36,490 bases of DNA. It comes from Candidatus Aenigmatarchaeota archaeon. Lineage in GTDB: Archaea; Aenigmatarchaeota; Aenigmatarchaeia; GW2011-AR5. The stretch's first letter is position 1; each line of letters opens with the position of its first letter. This document shows positions 8,989-16,877 of the stretch, in pieces. The DNA lies in assembly GCA_016187365.1 (NCBI GenBank), contig JACPJX010000024.1, forward strand, positions 1-36,490, in the 5' to 3' direction. The position numbers were made by a program, and so were the translations under genes. Below the pieces are notes generated by a model. The model had not been told where the DNA came from. It did no database searches and saw nothing but the letters and a program-made list of their open reading frames with translations.

Positions 8989-9165
8989 ATGGCGGAGATT
9001 CTCGTCGTGAGGAGCAAGGTGAAGGGCCTTGTGAAAAAGAAGAAGATGAACATGGGCGCTGACGCTGCGGAGGCGCTGAGCAGGGAAGTCGCAAAGCTCG
9101 TTGACAAGGCTGCCGAGCGCGCGAAAGCGAACAGAAGGAGCACGATAAAGGCCAGGGACATCTGA
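8989..9165 (+). CDS. small histone-fold-like protein (DUF1931 / Aq_328-type), 58 aa; not in the ORF track
   Basis: My translation: MAEILVVRSKVKGLVKKKKMNMGADAAEALSREVAKLVDKAAERAKANRRSTIKARDI*. AGGTGA sits 5-10 nt upstream of the ATG, a TTTATAA box lies near 8951, and a T-rich tract follows the stop. The pattern V.SKVK....K....M..DA.EAL...V..L...A..RAKAN.R.T.KARD fits the short archaeal histone-fold-like family. The track only lists the antisense 71-aa shadow ORF (8970-9185). Confidence 0.6.
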   Translation: MAEILVVRSKVKGLVKKKKMNMGADAAEALSREVAKLVDKAAERAKANRRSTIKARDI

Positions 9166-9272: not shown

Positions 9273-9479
9273 TCACCCTATGTAATCCTCTTCTTTGCCG
9301 TCATCTTTTTCGTTTTCTTCCGTTGTTTCTTCTTCAACTACTTCATCTTTGACTGCCTTTGCCTTTTTCCGCCTTATCCTTTCAACGGGGCCTAAGTATT
9401 CCGATGTGACCTTTCCGCCTCTCCTTATCGACTTATAGTAGTATTTCCTTCCGTTTATAGTCTTGACGTGCCTGTTCAT
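9273..9479 (-). CDS. hypothetical small protein, basic N-terminal half and acidic C-terminal tail
   Basis: 68 aa: MNRHVKTINGRKYYYKSIRRGGKVTSEYLGP... followed by VVEEETTEENEKDDGKEEDYIG. Starts 27 nt downstream of the polB stop on the same strand, with a TTTATA-like box in the gap. Confidence 0.5.
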   Translation of the reverse strand: MNRHVKTINGRKYYYKSIRRGGKVTSEYLGPVERIRRKKAKAVKDEVVEEETTEENEKDDGKEEDYIG

Positions 9480-9506: not shown

Positions 9507-12500
9507 TTACTTAATTATGAGCTTTTTTCCGGTGCTGCCATGATATCCGAACAGGAGTTCGCCGCCGCACTCGCATAAGCCGCGCAACGGCATCCTCTGG
9601 TATGACTTGCTGCATTTCGAGCACAAGATTTCCTCCCAGTTGCTCAGCGGCTGCTCTTTTTTGTAGTCGACGGTTATCTCGTGCTTCATTTTGCGCTTTG
9701 CCCCTGTGAGTATGTCGCTGATGCTTGACTGCCTGCCCCCGCCAAGAAGTTCGCTCCTCTCGACGCCGACGGCGTTCAGTATCCTTTCCACCGGCGGGAG
9801 GAGCTGGCTGGATATGTAATAATCCGAGTCGATCTGCATCCCTTTCTCCCTCGCATATTTCGGGTCCTCCGCGCGCTTGGAAAGCAGGTGGTTGTTGCCC
9901 TTTATTATGACGAATCCTATCCTGTCGCCTATCTTCGGCGCGTCGTACGGGTTCCTCATTGCGAGCTTCTTCGCGACTTCTATGTGCGGCAGGATGCCGC
10001 CGTAGCTTTCCGGGCTCTTCGTGAGCCCCTTAATCACTGTCAGCTTCTCCAGCGGCATGTCGCCGCGCCTGAGATGCTCCAGCGTATTCTTGACCTCATT
10101 CATGGCCATCTGGATGTCACCCTCCTTGAGCATTATGTTTATGACCTTCATCATTACCTCGCTTACGAGGGGGCACCAGTCGCGGCGGACTGTTTCTATG
10201 CCCTTCATTTCTATGCTGTCCTTCCATGCCTCCCCGGTGTGCTCAAACTTCCATCCGGCGTACCTTTTCTTCGTGAGTATGAGGAACGTCTTGTATATCT
10301 TCTCGAACTGGAGTTCCAGATGCCCTTCTAGTTTTGAGGTGACGAATGCCGCTATCTCCTCGCCGAGCTTCCTGGCGTCGTCAAGGTTGTTCGTGTCCGT
10401 CTTCACGAATATCGAATCGGTGTCGCCGTAGACGGTCTTCGCCTGGAAGTTCTGCTCCACAAGGTCCCTTGTTTTTATTATATTCTCCCTGCCGTATGCG
10501 GTTATGCTTCCTGCGACGTCGACCATGTAAAGCCTCGCGCGTATATAGCCTGTGTATCCGTAGAACGAATTATGCAAAACCATGCCCTGTGCTGTTACGA
10601 ACATCTCGGTGTCCCTTACAGACAAATCATAGACATATTCAGAAGGCTTGGCCTTGGATATGCTGGGCTGCTGACCAAATAAGTCTCCTGATGCTATTTT
10701 CTTGCCATGGGAAGTTTTTCTTTTTGATATGCGGTACAGGCCGTCAAAGGAATTGTTCTGGACTCCTCCAAAGTCTTTTATCATTACATTTAACTGGGCT
10801 GCGAGTCTTTTGCTTGTGGTGTTCATACGGTGCACATTCTTATTGCCGTCGCCTCTGTAATATCCTTCAAGAAAGGCTTTGCGCACCGAGCTGTTTGAAT
10901 TCAAAATAAAATCAGGCACTTTCTTGGCATAGGAAGACTCGCCGCAGTTATACCTGAAAAACAGGTACAGCAATTTCATGCCCATTGTTATATCCTTATT
11001 GAATACACTGGCGTCATAGCCAAAGCATTTTTTAATCAGATGCTTTATTCGCTGCACATTTTCCTTGTCCTTGTTTGCTATTGCTGCTTTGAATGAGCCT
11101 TTTCTTTTGTGGGTGCTGCCTTCGGCCACGAACCATCCCAACAATTCTGCAAGCTCCTCATCAACGGGCTTTGCGGCCGCAGGTATTTTTCTGCGACCCT
11201 GATGCGCTCCCCCGACTGCAATAAAGGCGCGTTTCCTGATAAATTCAGGTATTCTTCCGACTTCTGTTATGGGGAGTGTGTAATAATCAGGCTCTTCGCC
11301 GGCAGCTGAAAATCTTTCGTAAAATTGAGGCAAGTCCTCGCCATCCTCTGTTATATCATATACCGGAACCATGCCACAGTTCCCGACGGTTGTTAAGCCG
11401 CTCCTGTTTATCAGATGTCCTTCCGAGCTTCTTATGATGCGCCTCTCGACATATTTCTGGAGGCTGGCAGAATCGGCGGGCCATTTTACGGAAGAAATCA
11501 TTTTTGCCCTGTTTTTTAGCCAGTTTTTCTTGTTGAGATTCAGGCTCTTTGGAACGTATAAACGAACATCCGATGTCTCCTCTTCTGGAAGCGACTTCAA
11601 AAATTCTATCCAGTCAAATTCTATTTTCTGTTCAGGCAGCGAAACCCTGCTTACCTGCGCAATAATATCATTTTCAGAAATATCTCTGCCACCCCTTTCG
11701 GCCAGTTTGTGAAACGTGCTTTTTTGCTTCCGGTTTGAAGATATGCCTTTCATCACCATAACGCTATGGTCGTCCGTTATCATCGCCTCAGCCATCGGGG
11801 TTTTTATTCTGGTCAAATCACCCTTGCTTTTATGGCGTGATATCGCGTACATCGGCTTAAAACACGATTTGTTGTGTTTCACTGAGAGTGTTTCCCATCC
11901 GGAAAGCTCTATCACCTCTGTATCGCCTAAATCTATAATCTCGTGTTTTTTTGACATATCTTCAAAAAGTTCCTCTATCTCATAAATCTGCAATTTGCCG
12001 TCGGGTCTTTTGACAACAATATCCGTATCTGCGTGCACACTGTTCGACATGTCCTTTATTGCAAGCTGCTTGGCATTCAGTATCCTTTTCATGTCCCCTG
12101 CCGCGCCTTTCATCTGCTTTCTGACAGCGGATCTGGCGTCCATGAGCGTTGACAGTATGTCTGAAAGAATTCCTGACCTGACAGAGGGCTTCACGAAGTG
12201 CGCACCACTAGGCGACGAATAACATTCCATGAGCGGCTCCCTGAGGACGGTTTCCGGCGATATGTTGAAAGTCCTCATTATGCTAGGGTACAAACTCTTG
12301 AAATCGAGGACAAGGATGCAGCCGTCGGCATGCAACCCTTTCTCCGGCTCCATGACGGTGGCGCCCTTGAGGCCGTGCTCCTCCCTTTCCCTCGCCCTCC
12401 TTGCGATCTCGCCTTTTGACGGGGCGGGCGGCATCACGTATCCCCTTTTCCTGAATTCATGAAGGACCATCGTCTCCACGCGCTTCGACTGGCCGCCGAA

Positions 12501-13655
12501 AAGGTCCTGCAGGAGAAGGCCTGAAATCTTCGCGAGCTCCATGAATTTGTCCAGCATGCCTTTCTCAACGACGAGCCTGAGCGACAGGTCGGCGTCTTTC
12601 CTTGCGTATTCAAGGAATTCCATAATCTGTTCTTTGCTCCCGTTCCACATCCCCGCCATCTGGCCATACTCGACATCACGCTTTTCGTCGCCAAGCAAAG
12701 CCTTTGCAACTGTATTCAGGTCGTATCTGGGAAACTTGAGCCATGGGTCCCTCTTCAATATCTGGTACGGATCGACAACAACCCTTCCGGGCACTATAAA
12801 TTCCTGCATCGTGCCAAACGTTTTCCCGAACGACTGTTTGTCGGACCTGCCGAAATTCGCCGGTATCTTGTTGGCCCTGAACCTTTCGAGGAGATACGGA
12901 AAATCGAAGGCGTTTATATTGTACCCCGTCATCACATCGGGATCGTATTCTTCTATCGTCCTTGCGAACTCTTCAAGCATCTCCTTTTCCGAGGAAAATC
13001 CCCTGGCGTCCTGGTGATGAAAGTTCTTGGCCAGAAACACCATAGTCTTTTTCCCCCTGAATTCCGGCCTGAAAGACATTGATATTATTATCACCGGGTC
13101 GTTCTTTGAGTCAAGCGATTTTGTCGGGTCAGACGGCAGGCATTCGATGTCTATCGACATGTATCTCAGCGGGGCATTGTCCTGCCTTTCCACCGCCTTT
13201 ATGTCGTCTGCGCTGAAAGACTGGACTTTCACGGTACTGGTCCTGACTTTCTCGCCGCTGAATTCCACCCACCTCATTCCGTACAGCCCCCTGTCCACCA
13301 TGAACCTGTACTTGAACAGTATGTCAGCCTCGTATACGCCTTTTGAATGCTGCAACAGGGACTCTCTCACAGCCGGGACGTCCTGTGGGTTGCTGAGCGT
13401 CACTTTCAGCATTTTTGTCTTGCTATCCCTGTACCCCAGAGGCTCGAATTTCTCGTCTTCCTCTATCCGCCTTATTTCCTTCATGCCCTTCACCCTGCTT
13501 TCAGTGCCTTCACTGGGCACTATGTAAAAATACGGCATGAATTTGTCATGAAAAATGCACACGGTGCCGCCGCTCTCTGTTTTTGCAAATATCCTTATGA
13601 CCGGCTTGCCGCTGTTCATGAAGTAATCAACGTCAAGTATCTGGGCCTGCATCAT
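9507..13655 (-). CDS. polB: family-B DNA polymerase (PolB) precursor with one intein and a C-terminal 4-Cys extension
   Basis: Exo I SIDIECLP, Exo II GYNINAFDFPYL, Exo III EYARKDADLSL. Motif A LDFKSLYPSI. Motif B is split as KQLAIKDMSN / SFYGYTGY. Motif C VYGDTDSIFV. 1382 aa. Confidence 0.95.
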   Translation of the reverse strand: MMQAQILDVDYFMNSGKPVIRIFAKTESGGTVCIFHDKFMPYFYIVPSEGTESRVKGMKEIRRIEEDEKFEPLGYRDSKTKMLKVTLSNPQDVPAVRESLLQHSKGVYEADILFKYRFMVDRGLYGMRWVEFSGEKVRTSTVKVQSFSADDIKAVERQDNAPLRYMSIDIECLPSDPTKSLDSKNDPVIIISMSFRPEFRGKKTMVFLAKNFHHQDARGFSSEKEMLEEFARTIEEYDPDVMTGYNINAFDFPYLLERFRANKIPANFGRSDKQSFGKTFGTMQEFIVPGRVVVDPYQILKRDPWLKFPRYDLNTVAKALLGDEKRDVEYGQMAGMWNGSKEQIMEFLEYARKDADLSLRLVVEKGMLDKFMELAKISGLLLQDLFGGQSKRVETMVLHEFRKRGYVMPPAPSKGEIARRAREREEHGLKGATVMEPEKGLHADGCILVLDFKSLYPSIMRTFNISPETVLREPLMECYSSPSGAHFVKPSVRSGILSDILSTLMDARSAVRKQMKGAAGDMKRILNAKQLAIKDMSNSVHADTDIVVKRPDGKLQIYEIEELFEDMSKKHEIIDLGDTEVIELSGWETLSVKHNKSCFKPMYAISRHKSKGDLTRIKTPMAEAMITDDHSVMVMKGISSNRKQKSTFHKLAERGGRDISENDIIAQVSRVSLPEQKIEFDWIEFLKSLPEEETSDVRLYVPKSLNLNKKNWLKNRAKMISSVKWPADSASLQKYVERRIIRSSEGHLINRSGLTTVGNCGMVPVYDITEDGEDLPQFYERFSAAGEEPDYYTLPITEVGRIPEFIRKRAFIAVGGAHQGRRKIPAAAKPVDEELAELLGWFVAEGSTHKRKGSFKAAIANKDKENVQRIKHLIKKCFGYDASVFNKDITMGMKLLYLFFRYNCGESSYAKKVPDFILNSNSSVRKAFLEGYYRGDGNKNVHRMNTTSKRLAAQLNVMIKDFGGVQNNSFDGLYRISKRKTSHGKKIASGDLFGQQPSISKAKPSEYVYDLSVRDTEMFVTAQGMVLHNSFYGYTGYIRARLYMVDVAGSITAYGRENIIKTRDLVEQNFQAKTVYGDTDSIFVKTDTNNLDDARKLGEEIAAFVTSKLEGHLELQFEKIYKTFLILTKKRYAGWKFEHTGEAWKDSIEMKGIETVRRDWCPLVSEVMMKVINIMLKEGDIQMAMNEVKNTLEHLRRGDMPLEKLTVIKGLTKSPESYGGILPHIEVAKKLAMRNPYDAPKIGDRIGFVIIKGNNHLLSKRAEDPKYAREKGMQIDSDYYISSQLLPPVERILNAVGVERSELLGGGRQSSISDILTGAKRKMKHEITVDYKKEQPLSNWEEILCSKCSKSYQRMPLRGLCECGGELLFGYHGSTGKKLIIK
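10569..12041 (-). mobile_element. intein (491 aa) with LAGLIDADG homing-endonuclease domain, inserted in PolB motif B (pol-b site)
   Basis: Begins SVHADTD (Ser1), has block-B-like ITDDH, and ends MVLHN followed by the +1 Ser of SFYGY. Removing it restores K...NSFYGY. Two LAGLIDADG motifs: LAELLGWFVAEGS and AFLEGYYRGDGNK. The stretch is visibly more AT-rich than the flanking extein DNA. Confidence 0.85.
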
Positions 13656-14743
13656 TCCACCTTCGCAAATTCAGCAACCCGGCTTGAGAAATCCACTACG
13701 ACGGGCCTGAAATCCGACATAATAGAGCCGGAGTTGACGATTGTCACGGACTTGTAATTCGTTATGCCGGGCACGTGGCTGTGGCCTATATGGACGATGT
13801 CCGGGACCTCTTCGATGACCATGAAATCTTCCGGTATTATTGCGGAGGGCCTTCCCATATGCCTTTTTTTCAGCATATCGTGCGGCGCCTTGTGCATCAT
13901 CAGCACCTTTATCCCGTTTATTTCTATCATGGCCGGATTGCTCACTGAAACTATGTTTTTTTCCCTGAAATCCAGGGGCATCTGGGGGCATCCTTCCGAG
14001 TCCCTTTCCCCGGGACACGCGTAAAAATTCTTCGATGGCATCCTTTTTGCGAATTTCTCCAGTTCCGCTGGGGCCCCTATGTCGCCGGCGACAAAAAGAT
14101 TTTTTATGTCGCTTCTTTCAAACCATGAGAAGAACCTGTCGGCATCGCTTTCGGGCGCCTCGTCTAGATGCAGGTCAGAGACGAAGCATGCTTTTCCGCG
14201 GCCTTTGGCCGGCGTTCTTATCGGTATGTCCGGAAACAGGACTTCCTTGCCGAAAAGAACCTTCCCTCCTGTTACCACGCGCATTGCGACCACGTCATCT
14301 ATTTCTACTCCTTCGGCATCCTTTGGCTCGAATATCACGGGGACATTTGTCGTCATGTCCTCGACATCGAGTATTTTCCTCCCTTCGTCTTCCTTTATTT
14401 CGCGCACTATTCCTATGATGCACGCGTCATTGCGCATCGAATCAATCTTGTTCAGGGATATGAAATCCTTCTGGATCCTTGCAAGTATTACACCCTTCAT
14501 TTTCTCGTACTTCGACGTGTAAAATTTCACGAAATCCTCCGTCGTGATTTCGCTTTTTCTGGACTGAAAATTTTTTATCACCTTTATCCTGTCCTTCAGC
14601 ACAAAATTGCGGGCGTCGATGACAAAATCCCCCGAAACCACGTCAAAATCGTCGCTTGTTTTTGAAAGAAATTCCAGAGCATCTGGCGTGAGGAGAAATC
14701 CCCTGCGAAAATAGTCGTTCACGGTTTCCTGCATTTGCCACAC
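13652..14743 (-). CDS. dp1: DP1-like protein (DNA polymerase II/PolD small-subunit family: OB fold + calcineurin-like phosphoesterase)
   Basis: N-terminal FLLTPDALEFL helix region. OB-like ACIIGIVREI...ILDVEDMTTNVPVIF. PDE motifs FVSDLHLD, AGDIG, PGERD (in place of GNHD), MMHKA, IGHSHVP. GTG start at 14743 or ATG at 14734. The stop overlaps the polB ATG (ATGA at 13652-13655). Confidence 0.8.
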   Translation of the reverse strand: MWQMQETVNDYFRRGFLLTPDALEFLSKTSDDFDVVSGDFVIDARNFVLKDRIKVIKNFQSRKSEITTEDFVKFYTSKYEKMKGVILARIQKDFISLNKIDSMRNDACIIGIVREIKEDEGRKILDVEDMTTNVPVIFEPKDAEGVEIDDVVAMRVVTGGKVLFGKEVLFPDIPIRTPAKGRGKACFVSDLHLDEAPESDADRFFSWFERSDIKNLFVAGDIGAPAELEKFAKRMPSKNFYACPGERDSEGCPQMPLDFREKNIVSVSNPAMIEINGIKVLMMHKAPHDMLKKRHMGRPSAIIPEDFMVIEEVPDIVHIGHSHVPGITNYKSVTIVNSGSIMSDFRPVVVDFSSRVAEFAKVE

Positions 14744-14974: not shown

Positions 14975-16195
14975 TCAGGCGGAGAACCTTTCCGCAAGTA
15001 TTGCGTCAACCTTCTGGGCTGCGTTGTCGTTTATCGCGAGGCGTATCTCCCTCGTCCTTCCGTACCGCCCGTTGGATACCACCTTTGCGGTTATTATCCC
15101 CAGCATGTCGAGCTCTGCTATGAGATCACTTATCCTCCTCTGGGTCAGCGGCTTCATCCCGACAGAGGCGCATATGCCGGCATAGGCGTCGAACACGTCG
15201 CCGGTCAGCATCCTCCTGTCGGACCACTGCTTCTGCAGGGCCGTTTTCTGGCTGATCTTTATTATGGAATGGAGGACCGCCTGCGACTGCCTTGGCTGCG
15301 ACTTCACGGTCTCCACTATCCTGTCCATGTCTATCTTGTATTCCGCCATGTCGACATGCCTCTCTTCCACAATGCCGTCACCGAGCCTGTCTGCCATCTC
15401 GCCGGCAACCCTCAGAAGGTCGAGCGCCCTCCTCGCGTCACCGTGCTCCTGCGCGGCGAGCGCAGCGCACTTTCCAAGTACGGAGTCGCCGACGCTGCCG
15501 GTGGCAAACCCTGCAGATGCGCGCTCCTCCAGTATGTCCTTCAGCTGCGCGGCATTGTAAGGCTTGAATATTATCTCTTCTTCGGACAGCGATGATTTGA
15601 CCCTGAGGTCGAGGGCTTCCCTGAACGAGAGGTCGTTGGTTATGCCTATTATCATAATATGCGACTGCTTCAGTTCGGAATTTATCCTCGTGAGGTTGTA
15701 AAGGAAGTCGTCGCCTATTTTCCTGAACAGGGCGTCGATTTCATCAAGAACTATAATGACCTCGTTCTTTCCCGAGTCTATTTTCTCGAAGAATTTCCTG
15801 TAAAGGACGTCCGTCGGCAGGCCGGTGTCTGGGACAGTCTCGCCAAACTCCCTGAGCAACTGGGCAAAAAGCCTGTATTCGGTGTCGGCAATCTTTTTCA
15901 TCTTGCAGTTGATGTAGATCGGCTTTATGTCCCTTCCGTGGGTTCCCAGTATTTCCACAAGCTGGCCCAGGACGTATTTTGTGCATATCGTCTTGCCTGT
16001 TCCGCATGTCCCGTAGACGAAGATGTTGTTTGAATGGAACCCCTTGAGGACAGGTGCTATTATAGAACCCAGGATCTGTATTTCCTCGCCGCGGTGCTGT
16101 ATCCTTTCCGGCACAAAGTTTGAAGAAAGCGTTCTTTTATCGCGAAACACGCTGTGTTTTTGGATGTATTGTGAAAATATGTTCTGCTCATTCAT
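14975..16195 (-). CDS. cdc6: Orc1/Cdc6 replication initiator
   Basis: Walker A VYGTCGTGKT, Walker B IIVLDEID, an arginine-finger region, and a C-terminal winged helix (ISDLIAELDMLGIITAKV...GRYGRTREI). Confidence 0.95.
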   Translation of the reverse strand: MNEQNIFSQYIQKHSVFRDKRTLSSNFVPERIQHRGEEIQILGSIIAPVLKGFHSNNIFVYGTCGTGKTICTKYVLGQLVEILGTHGRDIKPIYINCKMKKIADTEYRLFAQLLREFGETVPDTGLPTDVLYRKFFEKIDSGKNEVIIVLDEIDALFRKIGDDFLYNLTRINSELKQSHIMIIGITNDLSFREALDLRVKSSLSEEEIIFKPYNAAQLKDILEERASAGFATGSVGDSVLGKCAALAAQEHGDARRALDLLRVAGEMADRLGDGIVEERHVDMAEYKIDMDRIVETVKSQPRQSQAVLHSIIKISQKTALQKQWSDRRMLTGDVFDAYAGICASVGMKPLTQRRISDLIAELDMLGIITAKVVSNGRYGRTREIRLAINDNAAQKVDAILAERFSA

Positions 16196-16232
16196 ACCAA
16201 CACCCCACCTACCGGCCAGACGTTACCCGGCA

Positions 16233-16240
16233 TTTTATAA
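16233..16240 (-). promoter_or_regulatory. TATA-box candidate for orc1/cdc6
   Basis: Minus-strand TTATAAAA lies about 38 nt upstream of the ATG at 16195, with a GGTGG-rich SD-like tract between them. Confidence 0.4.
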
Positions 16241-16306
16241 CCTTCAAAATCTGCAGAGGAACTGGTTCCTTTGTATAAAGCGCATCTTTTTGCAGATTTA
16301 CCCCGA

Positions 16307-16507
16307 TTTCAAATGGAACTTACCCATCTTTCCTGTGGAAATATCCTCCGTTTCTTCTGGAATAATTTTCAGGGTAGCACTATTTCTTCCGGCCGGTATT
16401 TAAACATTCTTTGTCTTGAAGAACTTCTTTTCAAAATATAGCATTGGGTGGTGGAAAGACCCCATTGTTTCATGTGGAACTGTAACCGATTGAAAGTTCT
16501 ATGGAAT
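16307..16507 (+). repeat. ORB/mini-ORB-like repeats
   Basis: TTTCAAATGGAAC (16307-16319). TTTCCTGTGGAAA (16329-16341, a perfect TTTCC-TGT-GGAAA dyad). GTGGTGGAAAG (16448-16458). TTTCATGTGGAAC (16468-16480). GTTCTATGGAAT (16496-16507). A related CTCCATGGGAAA lies at 16789-16800, beyond the AT-rich block. Confidence 0.5.
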
Positions 16508-16846
16508 ATGTAAAATAATTCCTCCCAAAACCAGAAAATTGTTCCGGGAAGGTCATGAAATACCCAATAAATGTTTTTAACCTACAAAAATTTTCAGTTT
16601 GCCATAACAACCACCCTAAAAATATTTTATGAAATATAAATGAAATAATATATTATAAAATTTCTATTATAATTATCATGAAAGTTTATATATCAGGCAT
16701 GTCAATAGAAGAAAAGAGAATATTTATTCTATTTATGGGAACGGAAAAAATTATCTATACAAAATCTCCCAGCCACAATCTACACGGCCTCCATGGGAAA
16801 TTATAGGGTGTCTGTGTTGCAATAAATTCGTTGTCGGTCGGATTGA

Positions 16847-16854
16847 TTTAAATA
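16847..16854 (+). promoter_or_regulatory. TATA-box candidate giving a leaderless transcript for the 262-aa orphan gene
   Basis: TTTAAATA is centred about 28 nt upstream of the ATG at 16878. No SD-like sequence lies between them. Confidence 0.4.
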
Positions 16855-16877
16855 CGCTTTCATCATATCGGGCAAAT

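What the first reader, a model, noticed from the sequence alone, without database searches (positions are those of the whole stretch)
9510..9731. PolB carries an extra ~66-residue tail with a CxxC-x12-CxC zinc-ribbon-like cluster after a PIP-like box
Seen: a PIP-like QSSISDIL (9708-9731) sits where euryarchaeal PolBs normally end. It is followed by TGAKRKMKHEITVDYKKEQPLSNWEEILCSKCSKSYQRMPLRGLCECGGELLFGYHGSTGKKLIIK, with the Cys cluster at 9567-9623. Established: eukaryotic Pol alpha/delta/epsilon/zeta catalytic subunits have Cys-rich C-terminal domains that dock the B-subunit. The C-terminal Zn module of archaeal DP2 docks DP1. Inference: this tail is a candidate DP1-docking module grafted onto an archaeal PolB.
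Basis: partly seen in the sequence, partly recalled or inferred. Interest (0 to 1): 0.7.

Follow-up and report, generated by a model that had tools for sequence, protein, structure and literature searches.

The report
Known DP1-docking zinc tail on PolB
The zinc-finger tail on this archaeal DNA polymerase is real and almost certainly docks the neighbouring DP1-like subunit, but this eukaryote-like arrangement in Aenigmatarchaeota was described in 2020 and backed by a binding assay in 2025.

Summary
PolB (9507-13655, minus strand, 1382 aa with a 491-aa intein) carries a PIP-like box at 9708-9731. A 66-residue tail follows, with CSKC-x12-CEC at 9567-9623. The four cysteines are present in 119-120 of 121 aligned relatives.

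The tail's zinc module matches zinc module III of the DP2 C-terminal domain (profile E=2.3e-6). This includes the loop that docks DP2 onto DP1. The gene upstream, overlapping PolB by 4 nt, is a DP1/B-subunit homologue (Foldseek E=3e-26 to P. abyssi DP1) with a degraded nuclease site. The order Orc1/Cdc6, DP1-like, PolB recurs in 12 of 17 related genomes. PolB sits where DP2 sits in a Hadarchaeota operon.

None of this is new. The window is an Aenigmatarchaeota contig. Kazlauskas et al. 2020 named this class B6-aenigma1. A 2025 Nature Ecology & Evolution paper reported AlphaFold3 models and yeast two-hybrid binding between Aenigmatarchaeota DP1 and this PolB.

Two side observations may be new. 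A conserved 68-aa gene lies just downstream of PolB. Two virus-like contigs carry PolBs with the same tail.

The parts
9507..13655 (-). Family-B DNA polymerase gene (1382 aa precursor, 891 aa after splicing). Exonuclease motifs (DIE, NINAFD, YARKD) and polymerase motifs (DFKSLYPS, KDMSN|SFYG, YGDTDS) are intact.
   Evidence: 120 listed homologues at 48-98% identity, the intein-free ones covering ~100% of the query, every named one Aenigm(at)archaeota or unclassified archaeon
10569..12041 (-). 491-aa intein with a LAGLIDADG homing endonuclease, inserted in polymerase motif B (KDMSN | S...VLHN | SFYGY)
   Evidence: Pfam Intein_splicing 1.8e-10 and LAGLIDADG_3 5.6e-9; boundaries; intein-free homologues such as P0002 align straight across the site
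9708..9731 (-). PIP-like box QSSISDIL. Family consensus is G-x-G-R-Q-x-S-[LI]-x-D-[IVL]-[MVL].
   Evidence: Q present in 120/121, L/I at +3 in 109/121, D at +5 in 108/121. Positionally equivalent to the C-terminal end of Thermococcales PolB. PCNA binding was not tested.
9639..9707 (-). Basic linker TGAKRKMKHEITVDYKKEQPLSN between the PIP-like box and the zinc ribbon
   Evidence: variable length among relatives; block-mean pLDDT 59-67 in the AF2 model
9534..9638 (-). Zinc ribbon WEEILCSKCSKSYQRMPLRGLCECGGELLFGYHGS, homologous to DP2 zinc module III; Cys ligands at 9621-9623, 9612-9614, 9573-9575 and 9567-9569
   Evidence: PDB profile hits to DP2 at E=2.3e-6 and 2.7e-5; NCBIfam DP2 5.5e-5; block-mean pLDDT 86-89; Foldseek top three are P. 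abyssi DP2
9585..9608 (-). Loop KSYQRMPL between the Cys pairs. It aligns with the DP2 KxRRxP loop that inserts into the OB/PDE groove of DP1.
   Evidence: Aligned to KFRRPPL / KYRRPPL of DP2. Family frequencies: R or K 102/121, R 104/121, P 115/121, L 113/121. The window has Q at the first Arg. The role of the loop in PolD comes from PMC6355029.
13652..14743 (-). DP1 / B-subunit homologue (OB plus phosphodiesterase domains). The ORF is 363 aa; the annotated protein is 360 aa starting at 14734. Its stop overlaps the PolB ATG by 4 nt. The nuclease site is degraded.
   Evidence: NCBIfam DP1 1.6e-41; PDB DP1 1.8e-18; AF2 pLDDT 94.5; Foldseek P. abyssi DP1 3.4e-26, then Pol epsilon, delta and alpha B-subunits. 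Motif III GNH is GER here, and His is never the common residue at that position in 116 homologues.
14975..16195 (-). Orc1/Cdc6 initiator, first gene of the conserved Orc1, DP1-like, PolB run
   Evidence: Pfam Cdc6_C 2.8e-24 and Cdc6_lid 2e-23; same order in 12 of 17 related loci
9273..9479 (-). Conserved 68-aa ORF 27 nt downstream of PolB: basic N-terminus, acidic linker, invariant C-terminal YIG. Its relation to the polymerase is unknown.
   Evidence: found next to PolB in 13 of 17 related loci, directly downstream in 11 and upstream on the opposite strand in 2; no Pfam or PDB relative

Best explanation
This is the replicative polymerase of an Aenigmatarchaeota archaeon, organised like eukaryotic Pol delta. 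An active, proofreading PolB has kept a single piece of the PolD large subunit at its C-terminus. That piece is the zinc ribbon corresponding to zinc module III of DP2. The ribbon presents a basic loop between its two Cys pairs (family consensus K-S-Y-R-R-M-P-L). The loop plugs into the acidic groove between the OB and phosphodiesterase domains of the DP1-like protein encoded just upstream, which tethers a catalytically dead B-subunit to the polymerase. The PIP-like box just before the tail probably binds PCNA. The DP1-like subunit then acts as a scaffold to other replisome parts rather than as a proofreader. Shown here: homology of the tail to DP2 zinc module III, DP1 identity of the neighbour, loss of its nuclease motif III, and conserved gene linkage. 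Taken from the literature: physical DP1-PolB binding and absence of DP2 in the phylum. Inferred: the docking geometry, zinc binding, PCNA binding and the scaffold role.
For: Tail versus DP2 zinc module III: profile E=2.3e-6 and 2.7e-5, NCBIfam DP2 5.5e-5, best three Foldseek matches. A Hadarchaeota DP2 has the near-identical [23 protein letters not shown]. The Cys ligands and the R-R-x-P-L loop are conserved across 121 sequences. The neighbour is a DP1/B-subunit by sequence and by fold, with relaxed metal-ligand conservation of 65-78% and no motif III His. PolB keeps all exonuclease and polymerase motifs. The order Orc1, DP1-like, PolB is collinear in 12 loci, and DP1-like/Orc1 are adjacent but inverted in 2 more; the other 3 are too short to tell. 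The DP1-like stop overlaps the PolB start by 4 nt. In PolD, the zinc module III loop (R1131/R1132, KxRRxP) sits in the OB/PDE groove, and a 20-aa peptide covering that module binds DP1 with nanomolar affinity (PMC6355029). Yeast two-hybrid and AlphaFold3 showed that Aenigmatarchaeota DP1 binds this PolB but not PolBs lacking the DP2-derived tail (PMC12680538).
Against: The helical bundle that also contacts DP1 in PolD and in eukaryotes is absent, since only 19 residues follow the last Cys. The 2025 paper calls the Aenigmatarchaeota tail degenerate, with a different predicted structure. The window has Q instead of the first Arg of the docking loop. The Foldseek E-values for the 31-column match are only about 0.06. 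Absence of DP2 cannot be checked on a 36-kb contig.
Confidence: 0.85

Rival explanations
1. The zinc ribbon is mainly a DNA- or PCNA-related element, analogous to eukaryotic CysA or to the DNA-contacting face of PolD clamp-1. It would help processivity next to the PIP-like box and would not be the DP1 dock.
For: It lies 28 residues after the PIP-like box. In PolD, zinc module III and nearby basic residues also line the nascent duplex (PMC6355029). phmmer aligns yeast Pol delta up to query residue 197 of the 230-aa C-terminal fragment, near the CysA region. Virus-like PolBs P0305 and P0322 have the same tail with no DP1 gene on their short contigs.
Against: The sequence match is to DP2 zinc module III, including its DP1-contacting loop, not to CysA. 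The tail co-occurs with a DP1-like gene in all 14 loci long enough to tell. Yeast two-hybrid binding depends on the presence of a DP2-derived tail. The two roles are not mutually exclusive.
Confidence: 0.08
2. The tail docks another partner such as the primase large subunit, and the DP1-like neighbour binds PolB elsewhere or not at all.
For: The 2025 paper reports a yeast two-hybrid interaction between the Heimdallarchaeal primase (PriL) and the DP2 C-terminal domain, and cites a similar observation in T. kodakarensis.
Against: The same paper found no interaction between the canonical archaeal primase and the Baldrarchaeial PolB3 C-terminal domain. The helical part of the C-terminal domain is missing here.
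Confidence: 0.04
3. The Cys cluster is a chance or decaying remnant with no function.
For: The published description is 'degenerate'. The tail is short and has a flexible linker.
Against: The four Cys are present in 119-120 of 121 sequences, the spacing is fixed at 12 in 113 of 117, and the loop P-L-x-G is over 93% conserved, in proteins only 48-78% identical overall.
Confidence: 0.02

Closest known systems
PolB group B6-aenigma1 (Kazlauskas et al. 2020, PMC7544198), called Aenigmatarchaeota PolB with degenerate DP2 C-terminal domain in PMC12680538 (2025)
   Same: Aenigmatarchaeota origin; active PolB core; a single C-terminal C4 motif most similar to DP2 zinc module III; paired with an inactivated DP1; proposed and yeast-two-hybrid-supported DP1 docking.
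   Different: Nothing in kind. This copy has a motif-B intein and a Q at the first Arg of the docking loop. The Orc1, DP1-like, PolB gene order and the downstream 68-aa gene are not mentioned in the main text of either paper.
C-terminal domain of DP2, the PolD large subunit (P. abyssi 6HMS/6T8H, T. kodakarensis 6KNB)
   Same: Zinc ribbon with a basic loop followed by P-L-x-G-x-C and C-G-G; partner is DP1; the gene follows DP1 in an Orc1-linked operon.
   Different: The catalytic body is a PolB, not a double-psi beta-barrel polymerase. The alpha-helical bundle and the terminal PIP of DP2 are absent. The second Cys pair is CxC, not the CxxC of Thermococcales DP2, although the Hadarchaeota DP2 also has CEC.
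Eukaryotic Pol alpha, delta, epsilon and zeta catalytic-subunit C-terminal domains with their B-subunits
   Same: A PolB catalytic core is tethered through a C-terminal metal module to an OB-plus-PDE subunit whose nuclease is dead. Foldseek finds the B-subunits at E=1e-17 to 1e-15.
   Different: There is one metal motif rather than CysA plus CysB, no helical bundle and no Fe-S cluster motif. The sequence match to the Pol epsilon C-terminal domain is not significant (5vbn_B E=0.77).
Baldrarchaeia PolB3, formerly B6-aenigma2 (probable example here: P0302)
   Same: Related PolB core (37% identity), a PIP-like box at the same position, and a zinc module III-like motif FHCASCGRAFRRIPLTGICECSG.
   Different: P0302 keeps the full C-terminal domain: a first zinc motif, helices, the second zinc motif, more helices and a terminal PIP. 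It is 1014 aa. The window protein retains only the second zinc motif.

Membership tests
PolB group B6-aenigma1 (Aenigmatarchaeota PolB with DP2-derived tail) | Family-B polymerase core with intact exonuclease and polymerase motifs | tested here: met
   Pfam DNA_pol_B 7.8e-112 and exo1 5.6e-37; motifs read directly from the sequence
PolB group B6-aenigma1 (Aenigmatarchaeota PolB with DP2-derived tail) | A single C-terminal C4 motif most similar to DP2 zinc module III | tested here: met
   One CxxC-x12-CxC motif; best PDB and NCBIfam matches are DP2; Foldseek top three are DP2
PolB group B6-aenigma1 (Aenigmatarchaeota PolB with DP2-derived tail) | Encoded by Aenigmatarchaeota | tested here: met
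   The DP1-like protein is 100% identical to an NCBI Aenigmarchaeota MAG protein on a 36,490-bp contig. PolB homologues and loci that carry a lineage name are Aenigm(at)archaeota; the rest are unclassified archaeon MAGs.
PolB group B6-aenigma1 (Aenigmatarchaeota PolB with DP2-derived tail) | Co-occurs with an inactivated DP1 | tested here: met
   Adjacent gene with a 4-nt overlap; DP1 by sequence and fold; motif III lost; linkage in all 14 informative loci
PolB group B6-aenigma1 (Aenigmatarchaeota PolB with DP2-derived tail) | Genome lacks DP2 | not testable with these tools
   No DP2 in the 36-kb window, but the rest of the genome is not available. Absence in the phylum is stated in PMC7544198 and PMC12680538.
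PolB group B6-aenigma1 (Aenigmatarchaeota PolB with DP2-derived tail) | Branches within clade B6 in a PolB phylogeny | not tested
   No tree was built. The published example OIN85950 was not among the ten clusters looked up and was not found in the supplement text held.
DP2 C-terminal domain | Zinc module III ribbon with the KxRRxP docking loop | tested here: met
   Aligned. The loop is conserved in the family. The window itself has K-S-Y-Q-R-M-P, with one Arg replaced.
DP2 C-terminal domain | Alpha-helical bundle flanking the zinc module and contacting the DP1 phosphodiesterase domain | tested here: not met
   Only 19 residues follow the last Cys. The AF2 model shows beta strands and no bundle. 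Compare DP2 and P0302.
Eukaryotic PolB C-terminal domain (CysA plus CysB) | Two Cys4 metal motifs separated by helices | tested here: not met
   A single motif. The Pol epsilon C-terminal domain hit is not significant (E=0.77).
DP1 / eukaryotic B-subunit family (the neighbouring gene) | OB fold followed by a calcineurin-like phosphodiesterase fold | tested here: met
   AF2 pLDDT 94.5; Foldseek P. abyssi DP1 at 3.4e-26 with query TM-score 0.75, and B-subunits at 1e-17 to 1e-15
DP1 / eukaryotic B-subunit family (the neighbouring gene) | Active Mre11-like nuclease site, which defines a true proofreading DP1 | tested here: not met
   Motif III GNH is GER in the window. His is never the common residue at that position in 116 homologues, and the other ligands are only 65-78% conserved. 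In this respect it resembles a eukaryotic B-subunit.
Canonical PIP box | Q-x-x-[LIM]-x-x-[FY]-[FY] | tested here: inconclusive
   Q and I fit, but the aromatic pair is I-L here. A few relatives have QTGLVSWY or QSTFDDIF. The position matches the Thermococcales PolB C-terminus. Binding was not tested.

The most novel reading that the evidence does not exclude
The polymerase module may hold more than the published PolB-DP1 pair. The invariantly placed 68-aa protein (basic N-terminus, acidic linker, C-terminal YIG) could be an undescribed third subunit or regulator. In addition, the same zinc tail on virus-like PolBs (P0305, P0322) could let archaeal viruses recruit a host DP1-type subunit.
Probability: 0.15. 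Interest if true: 0.55.

Novelty: already known. Interest (0 to 1): 0.2.

Why it matters
The arrangement is a living example of the step thought to have produced eukaryotic replicative polymerases. In that step, a PolB takes over from the DP2 catalytic core, keeps DP2's docking module, and retains a DP1 subunit whose nuclease has died. That significance has already been recognised in print, so this window adds only another member. It also adds supporting detail: PolB sits in the DP2 position of the Orc1/Cdc6, DP1, DP2 operon, which fits replacement in place.

Tried and rejected
No complex model of this window's own pair exists.

Pfam found nothing in the isolated tail, even at E<=10.

The first genome scan, using the 51-sequence tail alignment, had no stretch conserved enough to search with. 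A 10-sequence alignment worked.

A scan of viral contigs with the tail alignment found no relative.

The published B6-aenigma1 accession OIN85950 could not be linked to any of ten homologue clusters or found in the supplement text held.

A search for origin-type repeats around Orc1/Cdc6 gave only short, unconvincing repeats.

There are no tRNA genes or Rfam families in the window.

Chance origin of the Cys cluster was rejected on conservation. A mobile-element origin of the window was also rejected: the flanking genes are housekeeping ones such as SecD/F, thiolase, an HMG-CoA synthase-like protein and sugar metabolism genes.

Full report
**What is there.** The minus-strand ORF 9507..13655 encodes a 1382-aa family-B DNA polymerase (Pfam DNA_pol_B 7.8e-112, exonuclease domain 5.6e-37). 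A 491-aa LAGLIDADG intein interrupts polymerase motif B (KDMSN | S...VLHN | SFYGY; residues 539-1029, 10569-12041). The spliced protein is 891 aa. It keeps all three exonuclease motifs and all three polymerase motifs, so it should polymerise and proofread.

QSSISDIL is at 9708-9731, CSKC at 9612-9623 and CEC at 9567-9575. The tail after the PIP-like box is 66 residues.

Alignment to Thermococcales PolB structures ends at their residue 755 of 774, opposite window GVERSEL. The PIP-like box therefore falls where those enzymes end, and the tail is additional. That their last residues carry the PIP box is my own knowledge.

**Is it more than chance?** Yes. The protein search listed 120 homologues at 48-98% identity, and the intein-free ones cover the full query, tail included. 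CxxC-x12-CxC is found in 113 of 117 distinct tails. Each Cys is present in 119-120 of 121 aligned sequences, and so is the Q of the PIP-like box. A profile of the tail finds only 89 proteins at E<=1e-3 among 1.84 billion representatives. These are PolBs of this type matched along the whole tail at their C-terminus, and DP2 proteins matched over the zinc part only. The tail is therefore not a common feature of ordinary archaeal PolBs.

**Where the window comes from.** The neighbouring protein is 100% identical to an NCBI protein from a Candidatus Aenigmarchaeota MAG whose longest contig is 36,490 bp, the length of the window. The flanking genes are housekeeping ones: SecD/F, thiolase, an HMG-CoA synthase-like protein, sugar metabolism and glycosyltransferases. 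This is chromosomal DNA of an Aenigmatarchaeota archaeon.

**What the tail is.**
- The tail profile's best PDB matches are the DP2 large subunits of PolD: T. kodakarensis 6knb_B at E=2.3e-6 and P. abyssi 6hms_B at 2.7e-5. The match covers DP2 residues ~1119-1158, which is zinc module III.
- NCBIfam DP2 models hit the same residues at 5.5e-5.
- A Hadarchaeota DP2 fetched in the genome scan reads [23 protein letters not shown]. The window reads ILCSKCSKSYQRMPLRGLCECGG.
- An AF2 model of the tail is confident over the zinc part (block-mean pLDDT 86-89). It is a small beta ribbon with no helical bundle.
- Its three best Foldseek matches among 350,542 PDB chains are P. abyssi DP2: rmsd 0.7-0.8 Å over 31 columns for the first two and 2.2 Å over 35 for the third, at 37-39% identity. 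The E-value of about 0.06 is weak because the match is short.
- The match to the human Pol epsilon C-terminal domain is not significant (E=0.77).

**What the neighbour is.** ORF 13652..14743 ends 4 nt inside the PolB start codon region.
- It matches NCBIfam DP1 models (1.6e-41, below their full-length cut-offs) and PDB DP1 chains (1.8e-18).
- Its AF2 model (pLDDT 94.5) has P. abyssi DP1 as best Foldseek match (3.4e-26, query TM-score 0.75). The B-subunits of Pol epsilon, delta, zeta and alpha follow at 1e-17 to 1e-15.
- Its nuclease site is degraded. Motif III GNH reads GER, and His is never the common residue there in 116 homologues. The other metal ligands are only 65-78% conserved.
- It is therefore a DP1 by descent and a eukaryote-style inert B-subunit by function.

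**Gene linkage.** Of 17 Aenigmatarchaeota-type loci from species-representative genomes, 12 show Orc1/Cdc6, DP1-like, PolB with tail in that order on one strand. Two more have DP1-like and Orc1 adjacent but inverted. The other three contigs are too short to tell. In the Hadarchaeota locus the order is Orc1, DP1, a small HAD-family gene, then DP2. PolB thus occupies the DP2 slot of the ancestral operon.

**How it most likely works.** In PolD, the loop between the Cys pairs of zinc module III (KxRRxP, R1131/R1132) fits the acidic groove between the OB and phosphodiesterase domains of DP1. A 20-residue peptide covering that module binds DP1 with nanomolar affinity (PMC6355029). The equivalent loop here is conserved across the family: R or K 102/121, R 104/121, P 115/121, L 113/121. 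The window has Q at the first position. I conclude that the tail docks the DP1-like subunit. The PIP-like box probably binds PCNA, and the dead DP1 serves as a scaffold. The docking geometry, zinc binding and PCNA binding are inferences.

**Comparison with what is known.** This is published.
- Kazlauskas et al. 2020 (PMC7544198) described PolB group B6-aenigma1. It has one C-terminal zinc motif most similar to that of DP2, an inactive DP1 and no DP2. They proposed that PolB replaced DP2.
[quoted passage not shown] It calls the Aenigmatarchaeota tail a degenerate DP2 C-terminal domain. It reports AlphaFold3 models and yeast two-hybrid binding of DP1 to this PolB, but not to PolBs without the tail.
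- The full two-zinc version is Baldrarchaeial. P0302 in my search appears to be of that type.
- The window protein fails the tests for a full DP2 C-terminal domain and for a eukaryotic one, because it has no helical bundle and only one metal motif. It meets every feature of B6-aenigma1 that I could test.

**Verdict.** Neither paper's main text mentions the operon position. The same holds for the conserved 68-aa downstream gene and for the virus-like PolBs with the same appended tail. These are minor additions and were only partly followed up.

Noticed in passing
window 9273-9479 (-): A 68-aa ORF lies 27 nt downstream of PolB. It is found next to PolB in 13 of 17 related loci, directly downstream in 11 and upstream on the opposite strand in 2. 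It has an invariant N-terminal H-x-K-x-INGR-x-YYY-x-SIR...GPV, a basic stretch, a variable acidic linker and an invariant C-terminal YIG. There is no Pfam or PDB relative. It could be an accessory factor of the polymerase.
   Followed up: partly
L020 2317-4707 (P0305) and L021 807-3158 (P0322): Two PolBs of ~790 aa sit on short virus-like contigs among thymidylate synthase, UDG, a Cas4-like nuclease and runs of small same-strand ORFs. They carry the same zinc tail (FICVNCKKTYRRPPLLGQCDCGG) appended after a VQQTL motif. Several of their closest relatives end with a Q-x-x-L-F-type motif there, and none of them has the tail. No DP1 gene is on these contigs.
   Followed up: partly
window 10569-12041 (-); L004, L005, L007: The window PolB has a LAGLIDADG intein in motif B. 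Relatives L011 and L012 have an insertion at the same site, while L004, L005 and L007 have one in motif C (YGD|TDS). These appear to be the two PolB intein insertion sites I recall from Thermococcales.
   Followed up: partly
L019 1603-8583: A Hadarchaeota contig has Orc1/Cdc6, DP1, a HAD-family gene and DP2 in a row. Its DP2 zinc module III uses CxC (CECGG) like the Aenigmatarchaeota tail, rather than the CxxC of Thermococcales DP2.
   Followed up: partly
P0302 (not in window): A 1014-aa PolB, 37% identical to the Aenigmatarchaeota type, has two zinc motifs, helices and a terminal PIP. It fits the B6-aenigma2 / Baldrarchaeia PolB3 class that the 2025 paper reassigns from Aenigmatarchaeota to Asgard archaea.
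   Followed up: partly
window 8989-9165 (+): A 58-aa lysine-rich ORF has a weak match to the histone-fold-like DUF1931 (E=0.009, below the Pfam threshold).
   Followed up: no
window 16196-16877: The intergenic region upstream of Orc1/Cdc6 has AT-rich palindromes at 16633-16687 but no clear origin-recognition-box repeats. An origin here is plausible but was not shown.
   Followed up: partly
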